NCBI RefSeq assembly: GCF_963506605.1
Contig: NC_083279.1
Span: 52,886,001 to 52,950,000 of the forward strand
DNA: 64,000 bases
Reading direction: 5' to 3'
From: Zootoca vivipara
Lineage: Eukaryota
Positions 2,863 to 10,953 of the stretch are shown piece by piece. The notes below the pieces were generated by a model that saw nothing but the letters and a program-made list of their open reading frames with translations, did no database searches and was not told the DNA's origin. The translations under genes were made by a program, and so were the position numbers. Every line of letters starts with the position of its first letter. Position 1 is the stretch's first letter.

Positions 2863-3266
2863 TTGTGTGGCAATGCACGCGATCTCCCGGAAGAAATAAA
2901 GACACGGGACACATAGCATAAGGTTAATGGGTCGAATAGGCCACAACTTTATTGATTACGGAAGAAGCGAGGTATTGGCATAGGCATTGGATCTGACCGA
3001 CTATATCTGACTCCAGCCCGCTCTGCTGGCAGTCGGTGAAGGGTTAACCACCGTTGGATGGGTCCTGCGATGCACATCAACTAGGTTCCCATCCTGGGGC
3101 CACCATTCGGGGTCGTGCCCTCAGGCCCTCACCTTCCACGGCTTCGGACTTGGCAACGCCCCTTGGACTCCTTAAGGGAGTACCCCTCCGCATTGTGGGG
3201 AGGTGATGGCAGCAACCTCCCCACCACATCTGGACCTTCAAGAGATAATCCAATGCCTACCGCCAA
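2863..3266 (-). repeat. Split direct repeat B2 (3' terminus, 404 bp)
   Basis: Appears identical to 3653-4056 (offset 790). Confidence 0.95.
2948..2953 (-). terminator. Poly(A) signal AATAAA in B2 (also in B1 at 3738-3743)
   Basis: Minus strand aatcAATAAAgttgtgg followed about 35 nt later by the GT/T-rich tgtgtcccgtgtctttatttctt. Confidence 0.7.
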
Positions 3267-3430
3267 AACCAAGTTGTGACGATTACCACGAGGTAGGCGA
3301 AAAACCACCTGGCCGGAGCCAATTTGCCAGGTGGGAAAAACTCCTACCAGGCCCCGAATACGGCGACCAACCGAAGTCCGTAGGTAACGTCCAGAGGGAA
3401 ACCCTGCCTGAACGGGGGGAGGTGGGTGGG

Positions 3431-3654
3431 AGAAAAGGTAAGGTGAATCCGAAGGTAAGAGGGCGAGACGCTGTCGGGGGCTCGCCTATATAGGCATGGC
3501 AGCCCCTCCCAGCGCGCCCCGATTGGACGCGCCGCAGGCGAGCCCCCGGCAGAAGCCGACCAATGGGCTGGGGGGAATGCTGGCCATTCCCCCCCTGCGA
3601 GAGTCTCGCGTGCAGCCCACAACTCCTCCTCCCTTTAAGCCGGGAAGAGGCTTT
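3431..3654 (-). repeat. Split direct repeat A2 (224 bp)
   Basis: Appears identical to 10730-10953; abuts B1 to form the internal end-to-end junction. Confidence 0.95.
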
Positions 3655-4056
3655 GTGTGGCAATGCACGCGATCTCCCGGAAGAAATAAAGACACGGGAC
3701 ACATAGCATAAGGTTAATGGGTCGAATAGGCCACAACTTTATTGATTACGGAAGAAGCGAGGTATTGGCATAGGCATTGGATCTGACCGACTATATCTGA
3801 CTCCAGCCCGCTCTGCTGGCAGTCGGTGAAGGGTTAACCACCGTTGGATGGGTCCTGCGATGCACATCAACTAGGTTCCCATCCTGGGGCCACCATTCGG
3901 GGTCGTGCCCTCAGGCCCTCACCTTCCACGGCTTCGGACTTGGCAACGCCCCTTGGACTCCTTAAGGGAGTACCCCTCCGCATTGTGGGGAGGTGATGGC
4001 AGCAACCTCCCCACCACATCTGGACCTTCAAGAGATAATCCAATGCCTACCGCCAA
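3653..4056 (-). repeat. Split direct repeat B1 (404 bp)
   Basis: Appears identical to 2863-3266. Confidence 0.95.
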
Positions 4057-4087
4057 TCGGGCCCGAAAGGGCTCGCCGCCAATACCT

Positions 4088-4639
4088 CTACTTCCGCAAC
4101 CAATCCTTAATAGCCACCAGGACATCAGCCAGCCAGGTATCATTGCCATCATCAGAAAGATGCACGCCATCTGTGTGGTAAAGGCGTTCCTCATGGAAGG
4201 TTATAGCGGGGTGTGGTACCACGAGTCCATTCAAGGCCAGCACCTTTTTGGCCACAGCCATATCCAAAAACTTCCTTGCTTTGTTCACCGCGGCTGGTGA
4301 ATCGCAATCGCGCCAAATGCGCCTCTCGAGCAGCGAAGACCAACAGATGGTCACGGACGGGCAAGTAGCCAACAGTTCGTCAAAGTCCTGAAATATATTC
4401 CATTTTAAATCTATGGCTTTCCGATAAGCCAGATCGTTCTCGCCAAGTTGCACCACCATGATGTCGGGGGGACCCCGCAAGGCAACCTTAGCCCGCACAG
4501 CCGGTAGGAATTCGGACCAACGCATACCCCGTCTAGTAATCCAAGTGATTTTGAAACAGCGTGGCAGCCCGAGATTAGGGCCAAGGTTCCGTCTGCAAGC
4601 GCGCGCCCGGGCCCAATGCATGATGCTATGGCCCACCAT
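4088..4639 (-). CDS. SGNH/GDSL-family hydrolase (esterase) domain of the Ngaro element
   Basis: Block I (KIW)MVGHS, block II Gly in RRGMRW, block III QLGEND, block V DGVHLS. The frame stays open upstream of the ATG to 4717; probable splice acceptor at 4660/4659. Confidence 0.88.
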   Translation of the reverse strand: MVGHSIMHWARARACRRNLGPNLGLPRCFKITWITRRGMRWSEFLPAVRAKVALRGPPDIMVVQLGENDLAYRKAIDLKWNIFQDFDELLATCPSVTICWSSLLERRIWRDCDSPAAVNKARKFLDMAVAKKVLALNGLVVPHPAITFHEERLYHTDGVHLSDDGNDTWLADVLVAIKDWLRK

Positions 4640-4717
4640 CCAGATCTTAGTTAGACGTCCTGAAAGCGAAGTAAAGGAAAAAACATAAGTGCGGCCGCCA
4701 GGTGTAGCAAAAGGAAG

Positions 4718-9117: not shown

Positions 9118-9308
9118 CCAATGGGGAATTCGGGCGGGAGCTCTTTAAACCAATAAATTGAGGTATATTATCCGACACAGTAATTTGCTATATTCTGTGT
9201 ATAATATCCAGCACCAATGGGGAATTCAAGCGGGAGCTCTTAAACCAATAAATTGAGGTATATTATCCGACGCAGTAATTTGCTATATTCTGTGTATAAT
9301 ATCCAGCA
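9118..9308. repeat. Tandem duplication (96 + 95 bp) in the element leader
   Basis: ccaatggggaattc...tataatatccagca at 9118-9213 and 9214-9308, with a few substitutions and a 1-bp indel. Confidence 0.95.
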
Positions 9309-9805
9309 AAATATCAGACGTGACCAAGATATACAAACACATATAATAACTCGTGAAAACAGCGGACCAATTACACTGGAGGACTGTAGAGGTAACCCCA
9401 ATCAGTCCGAAAAGGCCATGAGCCGTGCGCAAGGGGGGCTACTAGCCTTCACAACTTGTGATGATATACTACCCCTACCGATGTAAATTGCAGCACAGCT
9501 TGAGCTAAAGTACGAATGGCTAAATACTTTCTTAAAGCAACGCAAGCAGTTTAATTGAAAGCCACAACCACCCAACGGAAACAAATAGCGACTGCCAAAG
9601 AGTAGTGGGTACCAAATACTATAAAGCGTTCCTCCCCGAGTTTGGCAGACGTGGGGGGGGTGCGCGGCTCTCAAAGCAGAAGAGTGCGCGTAATTATCGC
9701 AAGCGGCGAGCTACACAAGAGGGCTGGTAGAGGGGGGAGGGGCCGTGTCCGCTCACAAATGGACTTTTTCTCGGGCCAGGCAGCAGCCGCTAGGGGCGAC
9801 CCTCT

Positions 9806-10013
9806 CAAGATGGCCGCCGAAACAATGACGCGCAGCCGCACTCAAGATGGCGATCGGGCCGGGCAGCTGATACCTGCGCCGAACTCCCCCAAAATGGCGG
9901 CCGAAAAAGGATCGCACGAGCGCACACTAAGCGGTGATCGGGCCGGGCAGTAATGACACACACACAAAATGGCCGCCGAGGCAGGACACGTGGCCGCGCA
10001 CAAAATGGCGGCC
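9806..10013 (+). promoter_or_regulatory. Cluster of five YY1-like motifs CAA(G/A)ATGGC
   Basis: Motifs start at 9806, 9843, 9890, 9965 and 10001; two match CAAAATGGCGGC fully; all in the same orientation within a CpG-rich stretch. Confidence 0.65.
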
Positions 10014-10627
10014 GTAGCTATGGTGACTTCCCCAAACAAGCCCCCGAACTTAAAGAAGAATCCCGCCGGGCTGCCACCCAAAAGCCCGCCCAGGAAAGGA
10101 GGAGATCCCCAGTACGTTACCGCGTCTTGCAGAAAATGCCGGGCGCTATCGCCGCGCCAGGAGAGGTGCGGCACGCGACAGAGTGCTCCAGCGCCGAAGC
10201 GCCAGGCGGGCAGCAGCCGCGAGATCGTGCGAGGTCCGCCAACAGGGGAGGCGACGTTGCCACGCCGATCCGGATCGCCTGAGAAGCCTCGCTATGCTGG
10301 GCGCGGGGGGAACGGCCCTCGTTGGAGTGAAGCGAGGGTTCGATGCGGCTCAGAACGGGGAGAAGCAGCGCGATGAGGAGCGCAGGGAAGCGGCTCCTTG
10401 CGGCAAACGGTCGCGCCGATGCGGGGGCTCGCGGCGCGGCTCGCGAAGGGCAATATCCGGGAGGCGACGCAGTGAGGCAGAATGGAGATCGCGGGCGGTA
10501 GAAGCGACGTTCGAGCGTGGAAAATGCGTGGAATCTCTGGCGGTCCAGTAGCCGAGTGCCGGTGCCGGCAGACGCGCCCGAGCAGCCCCGCAAGGGGTAG
10601 CCTCGCTGTGATCCCGGCGAAGGGGAT

Positions 10628-10716
10628 GTGGCGTTTAAAAACGCCGTTGGAGAGATTTCAGCTGTGACCTAAAGGGAAGAAGTGGCGTTTAAAAACGCCG
10701 TTGGAGTGATTTCAGC
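10628..10716. repeat. Two 35-bp direct repeats each containing the palindrome GGCGTTT-AA-AAACGCC
   Basis: 10628-10662 and 10682-10716, one mismatch, 54-bp period. Confidence 0.9.
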
Positions 10717-10729
10717 CGATGCAGCGATC

Positions 10730-10953
10730 AGAAAAGGTAAGGTGAATCCGAAGGTAAGAGGGCGAGACGCTGTCGGGGGCTCGCCTATATAGGCATGGCA
10801 GCCCCTCCCAGCGCGCCCCGATTGGACGCGCCGCAGGCGAGCCCCCGGCAGAAGCCGACCAATGGGCTGGGGGGAATGCTGGCCATTCCCCCCCTGCGAG
10901 AGTCTCGCGTGCAGCCCACAACTCCTCCTCCCTTTAAGCCGGGAAGAGGCTTT
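10730..10953 (-). repeat. Split direct repeat A1 (5' terminus, 224 bp)
   Basis: Appears identical to 3431-3654. Confidence 0.95.
10783..10863 (-). promoter_or_regulatory. Putative Pol II promoter in repeat A (TATA, two CCAAT boxes, GC-rich)
   Basis: TATATA at 10786-10791 inside palindrome GCCTATATAGGC; CCAAT on minus at 10821-10825 and on plus at 10859-10863; pyrimidine-rich initiator-like sequence about 30 nt downstream. Duplicated in A2. Confidence 0.65.

What the first reader, a model, noticed from the sequence alone, without database searches (positions are those of the whole stretch)
2863..10953. Intact, apparently very recent Ngaro-type YR retrotransposon in a reptile genome
Seen: four uninterrupted ORFs with complete RT, RNase H, YR and SGNH motifs; A1/A2 (224 bp) and B1/B2 (404 bp) show no difference I can find; CpGs are retained while the flanks are CpG-depleted. 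Known: split direct repeats and no methyltransferase define Ngaro rather than DIRS1; well-known examples come from fish, amphibians, sea urchins and fungi. Inference: a potentially active amniote copy that could serve as an experimental model and may be insertion-polymorphic.
Basis: partly seen in the sequence, partly recalled or inferred. Interest (0 to 1): 0.7.

Follow-up and report, generated by a model that had tools for sequence, protein, structure and literature searches.

The report
Intact lizard Ngaro retrotransposon family member
This is a complete, young jumping gene of a known but poorly understood kind, one of dozens of intact relatives in this lizard genome, and comparing them shows conserved RNA folds and one-sided insertion joints that likely reveal how such elements end their RNA and insert their DNA.

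Summary
Confirmed: an 8,091-bp minus-strand element, A1-ORF1-RT/RNaseH-YR-SGNH-B1-A2-spacer-B2, repeats 100% identical, no methyltransferase; the layout of Xenopus Ngaro DIRS-53_XT. It is not a lone survivor: 24 of 39 fetched relatives have all four frames open, dN/dS about 0.1 at dS 0.5-1.2, and 30 of 47 copies have unmutated repeats. A 5'-deleted sibling is identical over 1,323 nt. Polymorphism is not supported: four of four conspecific samples carry the junction at full depth; a related species lacks it. Three RNA runs show sense RNA over B and the spacer, none over this copy's genes. New mechanistic evidence: (1) a covarying duplex covers B1's poly(A) signal but not B2's; (2) an ENE-like U-rich hairpin lies only in the spacer; (3) insertion is at AA without duplication, and in 11 of 11 mismatched targets the host dinucleotide stays at the 5' end, suggesting single-strand exchange. 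Earlier scan notes saw the ENE, AA target and junction hairpin on solo repeats elsewhere. No RT tree against labelled DIRS1/PAT references was possible. New member of a known kind.

The parts
2863..10953 (-). Whole Ngaro-type element, 8,091 bp
   Evidence: Repeat ends, GC and CpG step; ends match 60+ relatives
10730..10953 (-). A1 repeat; predicted promoter (CCAAT 10825-10821, TATATA 10791-10786); begins with the host-side AA core
   Evidence: Sequence; CCAAT in 49 of 50 and TATA-like in 34 of 50 A copies; start site not mapped
8720..10729 (-). 2-kb 5' leader, fast-evolving, with short tandem duplications
   Evidence: Nearest other copy 88%, rest under 70% or patchy; duplications D3, D4, D7, D8
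7217..8776 (-). ORF1, Gag-like with C-terminal Cys/His finger (500 aa from ATG 8719)
   Evidence: dN/dS median 0.12; no Pfam hit, Gag role inferred from position
5605..7524 (-). RT + RNase H, ends 32 aa after the last RNase H motif (no methyltransferase)
   Evidence: dN/dS 0.06-0.09
4718..5728 (-). Tyrosine recombinase
   Evidence: Pfam PF00589 E 6.4e-5; catalytic motifs; dN/dS median 0.09
4088..4717 (-). SGNH hydrolase ORF
   Evidence: Pfam PF13472 E 0.0078; S-G-N-H blocks; dN/dS median 0.23
4078..4104 (-). Pre-B1 arm, predicted to pair with 3769-3741 and cover the first bases of B1's AAUAAA
   Evidence: 6 of 15 outer-helix pairs change on both sides
3653..4056 (-). B1 repeat; AATAAA at 3743-3738
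   Evidence: RNA molecule ends at 3721 and 3712 in B coordinates
3615..3661 (-). Internal B|A junction (CACAC-AA-AGCC), predicted hairpin; copy of the presumed circle junction
   Evidence: AA in 51 of 51 internal junctions; same fold in the distinct junctions folded
3431..3654 (-). A2 repeat (second predicted promoter)
3267..3430 (-). Unique 164-bp spacer, 94% conserved
3292..3348 (-). ENE-like hairpin: two stems around a U4-7 x U4-7 internal loop
   Evidence: triplex not tested
2863..3266 (-). B2 repeat; AATAAA at 2953-2948; ends in the element-side AA core

Best explanation
This is an intact, recently inserted Ngaro-type tyrosine-recombinase retrotransposon, one of many young copies in this lizard genome, that likely replicates through an RNA shorter than the element at both ends and is predicted to rebuild its ends from the internal B1|A2 joint. 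SHOWN: layout, open frames, purifying selection, AA-centred insertion with no base gained or lost, presence in four conspecific samples and absence in a related species. INFERRED, with odds: (a) RNA starts near the end of A and is polyadenylated about 60 nt before the end of B (0.75); (b) a duplex formed only in the B1 context hides B1's AAUAAA so that polymerase reads on to B2 (0.6); (c) the U-rich hairpin in the spacer grips the poly(A) tail as an ENE and so stabilises only RNAs that end in B2 (0.55); (d) RT copies the RNA, template switches at A2 and B1 restore the missing ends and close a B|A junction (0.75, the published model); (e) the recombinase joins that junction to a host R-R-(not A)-A-A site, most likely by exchanging only the minus strand of a single-stranded or folded cDNA, with replication resolving it (0.45). 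Later recombination between the repeats gives solo A-spacer-B, A1-genes-B1 and expanded forms.
For: Layout and motifs. Family: 143 RT matches scored of 1,035 candidates, 142 without a stop, all at least 77% identical (best-scoring subset); 24 of 39 DNA-search relatives with four open frames; dN/dS medians 0.12, about 0.07, 0.09, 0.23 in 24 non-independent comparisons; 30 of 47 copies with no substitution between their repeats; near-identical groups L048/49, L050/53, L058/59, L066/67/68; sibling L070 identical over 1,323 nt. (a) Sense-strand reads 45x over B, molecule ends 17 and 26 nt past AATAAA. (b) Duplex median -41.9 kcal/mol against -17.7 shuffled and -9.3 for the B2 context; hexamer paired by 2 or more bases in 54 of 58; 9 of 42 pairs and 49 cells change on both sides, 0-1 of 500 shuffles reach this, slid controls 28-41% paired against 94%. 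(c) Stems 98% paired in 30 distinct spacers across three tiers, U-runs invariant. (e) 3' ends AA in 66 of 66, 5' ends AA in 56 of 69; 11 of 11 paired non-AA cases keep the host dinucleotide at the 5' end (p 0.001 against 50:50); purine at -4 in 62 of 69 (p 1e-9), which would pair or wobble with the minus-strand junction; no bias 3' of the site; satellite units give the empty site with one AA. DIRS-1 cDNA is single-stranded (PMC7192593, passages).
Against: No reads over this copy's leader, ORF1 or most of pol in three RNA runs (6% of each read, tissue unknown), so activity of this copy is not shown. It appears homozygous in all four samples and shows allele differences, so it is not brand-new. 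In 4 of 58 copies (L097, L099, L101, L102) the duplex stops short of the hexamer. An 8-bp spacer helix also touches B2's hexamer. RNA ends could not be assigned to B1 or B2, and much B RNA probably comes from solo repeats. The ENE stems have only one compensatory pair, no Rfam match, and neither spacer nor B folds better than shuffles (z -0.9 to 0). Covariation counts are inflated by relatedness. The junction hairpin is more stable on the plus (sense) strand, mostly by 1-4 kcal/mol, which does not favour a folded minus-strand substrate. How pol, YR and SGNH are translated is unresolved.
Confidence: 0.85

Rival explanations
1. Same element, but integration follows the textbook route: a double-stranded circle, two strand exchanges across a short overlap, and strand-biased mismatch repair (or both cuts falling 3' of the dinucleotide) produce the one-sided joints.
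For: It is the published model for DIRS-order elements (PMC3266345 and PMC7192593, passages). The junction hairpin is weaker on the minus strand; as double-stranded DNA its arms could be recombinase binding sites.
Against: 11 of 11 mismatched sites resolved one way; target similarity to the junction lies only on one side of the cut; the inverted arms are not centred on the AA.
Confidence: 0.4
2. The copy is an old, silent, fixed insertion whose repeats look young because gene conversion keeps them alike; the family is no longer mobile.
For: Present on apparently both haplotypes in 4 of 4 samples, with allele differences; no RNA over its genes; nearest full-length relative is 97% identical and broken.
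Against: Absent in organism B, whose flank differs by only 9 of 369 bases; CpG o/e 0.82; identical sibling on another chromosome; groups of copies within 0.1%; open frames in 25 of 41 loci.
Confidence: 0.1
3. It belongs to the PAT group, which also has split direct repeats.
For: Same repeat type (PMC3266345, PMC9210276); no labelled tree was built.
Against: No room for a methyltransferase: pol ends 28-45 aa after RNase H in 40 of 42 rows (motif not found in 2); SGNH ORF after YR, reported for Ngaro; 48-51% identity to Xenopus RT/RNase H proteins.
Confidence: 0.04
4. The conserved folds in B and the spacer are by-products of frequent exchange of 3' ends between subfamilies rather than of selection on RNA structure.
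For: Distances in B and spacer correlate only weakly with pol distances (Spearman 0.32, 0.25), as recombination would give; whole-region folding z-scores are unremarkable.
Against: Exchange does not create compensatory changes between an arm outside B and its partner inside B.
Confidence: 0.15

Closest known systems
Xenopus Ngaro-like DIRS-53_XT / DIRS-54_XT (PMC9210276; first fifth of the text and passages read)
   Same: A1...B1 A2 B2 repeats 100% identical, four ORFs gag-RT/RH-YR-SGNH with overlaps, no methyltransferase, potentially active copies
   Different: Host is a lacertid lizard; B is 404 bp against 152; many more intact copies; spacer, poly(A) duplex, ENE and target rule are not mentioned in the passages I read
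Cafeteria Ngaro elements and their solo AB repeats (PMC8547959, passages)
   Same: Same repeat order; solo repeats attributed to recombination
   Different: Here A1-genes-B1 (7 of 59) and triple-B (1 of 59) products are also seen; no virophage targeting
Dictyostelium DIRS-1 (PMC7192593, passages)
   Same: RNA shorter than the element, internal copy of the junction, YR insertion at a short shared word without duplication, single-stranded cDNA
   Different: Inverted repeats plus ICR, methyltransferase, 3-bp word
ENE of KSHV PAN RNA and Arabidopsis Evade (PMC12501189, passages)
   Same: U-rich internal loop between G-C-rich stems upstream of the poly(A) site
   Different: Reported TE ENEs are mostly plant and fungal LTR elements; here predicted only, in a vertebrate YR element, placed so that only B2-ending RNA has it
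Integron attC and CTXphi single-strand integration (PMC4792948, PMC3442271; abstract starts in a search listing only)
   Same: Tyrosine recombinase, one strand exchange, replicative resolution would give one-sided joints
   Different: Bacterial; defined sites; here only inferred from joint polarity

Membership tests
Ngaro-like YR retrotransposons | Split direct repeats A1 ... B1 A2 B2 with A1=A2 and B1=B2 | tested here: met
Ngaro-like YR retrotransposons | gag-like, RT/RNase H and tyrosine recombinase ORFs in one orientation; no DDE integrase or protease | tested here: met
   YR Pfam score is under the curated cut-off but the catalytic motifs are complete
Ngaro-like YR retrotransposons | No methyltransferase after RNase H | tested here: met
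   32 aa after the last RNase H motif; no Dam hit
Ngaro-like YR retrotransposons | SGNH hydrolase ORF after YR (vertebrate type) | tested here: met
   weak Pfam E 0.0078, motifs present, under purifying selection
Ngaro-like YR retrotransposons | RT/RNase H groups with Ngaro references, apart from DIRS1 and PAT | not testable with these tools
   No labelled references were returned; the tree (quick method) holds only unlabelled homologues; a Dam search of the genome for a DIRS1 outgroup found none
Ngaro-like YR retrotransposons | No target-site duplication | tested here: met
   Satellite empty sites and 11 unequal end pairs
DIRS1-like | Inverted terminal repeats with ICR | tested here: not met
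   No inverted terminal repeats
PAT-like | Split direct repeats plus methyltransferase | tested here: not met
   Repeats yes, methyltransferase no
ENE (triple-helix stability element) | U-rich internal loop flanked by conserved stems, upstream of a poly(A) site | tested here: met
ENE (triple-helix stability element) | Forms a triplex with poly(A) and stabilises RNA | not testable with these tools
   Needs melting or reporter assay; no Rfam match

The most novel reading that the evidence does not exclude
Vertebrate Ngaro elements use a built-in RNA switch (a duplex that silences the first poly(A) signal and an ENE that protects only the read-through RNA) and integrate a single-stranded minus-strand cDNA by one strand exchange, as integrons and CTXphi do: a eukaryotic retrotransposon with an integron-like integration step.
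Probability: 0.3. Interest if true: 0.78.

Novelty: new member of a known kind. Interest (0 to 1): 0.5.

Why it matters
How split-repeat YR retrotransposons make their RNA and integrate is still a model without experiments; only DIRS-1 has been worked on. A lizard genome with over a hundred RT-intact, mutually diverged, individually young copies supplies natural variation that turns three steps into specific tests: which poly(A) site is used, whether an ENE works in a vertebrate retrotransposon, and whether the recombinase acts on one strand. It also ties the abundant non-coding solo repeats seen in lizard genomes to a coding parent type. The single copy itself is ordinary.

Tried and rejected
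Rfam scan of 2800-4200: only a chance match. PDB sequence searches with SGNH and YR: nothing significant. Dam family search of the own genome to obtain a DIRS1 outgroup: none; so no labelled tree. Atlas: the SGNH protein could not be read; an Anolis RT homologue gave only unnamed RT clusters. No RNA holder was listed by the run search: no evidence either way. Organism B contigs leave most of the element interior uncovered at 88%: a hole, not used as evidence. Pattern search for B ends returned only 8 matches and is incomplete; the 2,058 first-look candidates for the spacer are not a copy number. AA as a 2-bp target duplication: rejected. Permuted integration through the internal junction: not seen upstream of L033, L036, L037, L041, L069. 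Satellite targeting: L032 and L038 sit at different positions of the 146-bp unit, so rejected. First ENE pair count had a column slip, corrected. L083 (62 repeat mismatches) is probably a mis-paired or truncated A1; not examined, counted among the 47. No host gene was identified in the window from ORFs of 130 aa or more; short exons were not searched. No supplements were read; Repbase/Dfam were not available, so the family may already be catalogued there. [quoted passage not shown]
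Full report
Observation. The element occupies 2863-10953 on the minus strand. A (224 bp) and B (404 bp) each occur twice without a difference, in the order A1, genes, B1, A2, 164-bp spacer, B2; A2 and B1 overlap by AA. Four stop-free frames encode a Gag-like protein with a Cys/His finger, RT-RNase H, a tyrosine recombinase and an SGNH hydrolase; only RT passes its Pfam cut-off. CpG o/e is 0.82 against 0.25-0.30 outside. The closest named proteins are from lacertid lizards (71-86%), then other squamates (54-61%) and frogs (about 50%); in a quick tree the window copy lies in a lacertid clade inside a squamate clade.

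Family. A DNA search with the SGNH region scored 40 of 211 candidates: nearest other copy 97%, the rest 72-91%. I fetched those 39, 20 of the more distant RT matches (143 scored of 1,035, 142 stop-free) and 13 other stretches. Of the 39, 24 have all four frames open. Against the window copy dS is 0.5-1.15 in pol with dN/dS 0.06-0.09 (one comparison saturated), and medians are 0.12, 0.09 and 0.23 for ORF1, YR and SGNH. Yet each copy's own repeats are nearly identical: 30 of 47 have no substitution. The family is therefore many long-separated lineages, each represented by young insertions. Of 59 coding copies, 48 have two B repeats, 7 end exactly at B1, 1 has a third A-spacer-B, and 3 show no B in the fetched stretch (L096 counted as two-B). 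Nine of nine new spacer matches examined are solo A-spacer-B units with exact ends. These are the products expected from recombination between the repeats (inference; solo AB also in PMC8547959, passages). L070, on another chromosome, is identical to the window copy over 1,323 nt and starts with the normal AA-AGCCT end joined through a 4-nt microhomology to a point 129 nt before B1.

Age and polymorphism. Runs X1, X2, X5 and X7 (4 samples, 3 studies; one may be the assembly's source; chosen as best holders) each give one contig from 10924 across the junction to 11625-11652, at depths 15, 32, 59 and 5.4 against flank depths 15, 34, 58 and 6.3. Single-copy parts show allele differences (9652, 10624, 9272). 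A contig of organism B aligns from 10952 outward with 9 differences in 369 bases and carries 247 letters unlike the element before that point (letters not shown, so 'empty site' is inferred; 1 of 7 B runs laid). Zero differences in 628 repeat bases bound pair divergence at 0.48%, about a fifth of the A-B flank divergence, if rates are equal and there is no conversion.

RNA. In three raw RNA runs (one study, 6% of each read, 88% likeness) 180, 209 and 64 reads were laid. In X21 and X22 they pile on B (about 45x, first mate on +, which in the usual stranded protocol means element-sense RNA), run on into the spacer (22 and 10 reads) and, in X21, have molecule ends at 3721 and 3712, 17 and 26 nt past AATAAA. 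The leader and ORF1 have no depth; short matches in pol and SGNH come from diverged relatives. So B carries a used poly(A) site and the visible RNA is mostly a short spacer-B species, from A2 or from solos; full-length RNA of this copy is not seen.

Cis-acting folds. B and the spacer are far more conserved (median p-distance 0.054, 0.075) than third codon positions of pol (0.32). Leads from earlier scan notes sent me to test folds here. A 27-nt arm just before B1, overlapping the last SGNH codons, pairs with the stretch up to and including the start of B1's AAUAAA: median -41.9 kcal/mol in 58 copies against -17.7 for shuffled arms and -9.3 for the matching stretch before B2; the hexamer is touched in 54 of 58, not in four distant copies. 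On 35 distinct rows 94% of cells pair, 9 of 42 pairs change on both sides, and slid controls give 28-41%; relatedness inflates such counts. The spacer holds two stems around U-runs, kept in all three tiers with one compensatory pair; it fits the ENE description in PMC12501189 (passages) but has no Rfam match. Because it lies outside B, only RNA ending at B2 would carry it. An 8-bp spacer helix touches B2's hexamer too, which weakens a simple on/off picture.

Integration. All 51 internal junctions and all 66 terminal B ends carry AA, with no B end missed among 118 poly(A) motifs; 56 of 69 5' ends have AA, 13 another dinucleotide, and in the 11 with both ends visible the odd dinucleotide is always 5' (p 0.001). 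Upstream of the AA, -4 is a purine in 62 of 69 and -3 is not A in 61 of 69; downstream there is no bias. Two copies in a 146-bp satellite show the empty unit with one AA and nothing lost. This excludes a target duplication. Two ordinary strand exchanges across a mismatched overlap should leave either polarity; one polarity, with similarity only on the side that the minus-strand 5' end would test, fits a single minus-strand exchange (inference from known tyrosine-recombinase chemistry, recalled). DIRS-1 makes single-stranded cDNA (PMC7192593, passages). Against this, the conserved junction hairpin is more stable on the sense strand, and biased repair could give the same pattern.

Known versus new. 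Layout equals Xenopus DIRS-53_XT (PMC9210276, first fifth and passages), which also names reptiles as hosts of the order; Ngaro fossils predate amniotes (PMC9004415, passages). Eight searches listed no paper on lizard Ngaro families, their poly(A) control, an ENE in them or joint polarity; three key papers were not held, no supplements were read, and repeat databases were unavailable. The scan had already noted the ENE, AA target, junction hairpin and a hint of poly(A) choice on solo repeats in this and other genomes. Other papers seen as passages only: PMC3783388, PMC6681497, PMC4350176, PMC13465315, PMC3266345, PMC9341512; PMC6050309 had no occurrence of DIRS or Ngaro. Verdict: new member of a known kind, interest 0.5 for the testable mechanism.

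Noticed in passing
L070 (G000:C8, locus 958-2287): 5'-deleted sibling identical to the window copy over 1,323 nt; keeps the first 5 nt of A joined by GCCT microhomology to the end of the SGNH ORF. Depth of the A contig in X2 and X5 (about 3x single copy) fits its presence there.
   Followed up: partly
L032/L081, L038, near L037: 146-bp tandem satellite holding two family copies at different positions of the unit.
   Followed up: partly
L081:271-5749: A young LTR retrotransposon (430-bp identical LTRs, long open frames) nested in the leader of copy L032.
   Followed up: no
L065: Copy with a tandem extra A-spacer-B, the reciprocal of the B1-ending copies.
   Followed up: partly
window 10735-10741 and 10752-10758 (+), same in A2: Two AGGTAAG splice-donor-like words on the antisense strand at the end of A; a similar word in 36 of 50 A copies.
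   Followed up: no
window 10953, run X21: 12 reads join the A start to a different flank: transcription across the end of a family copy at another locus.
   Followed up: no
window 9115-9308, 9799-9950, 10625-10716: Short tandem duplications (95, 84, 54 bp spacing) in the leader; other copies have their own, unrelated ones.
   Followed up: no
window 1015-1270 and 12259-12619; 133-510; 13667-14386, 17031-17641, 37120-37581: Two opposed copies of a short DNA-transposon-like repeat, a SINE-like stretch and LINE fragments; family labels recalled, not tested.
   Followed up: no
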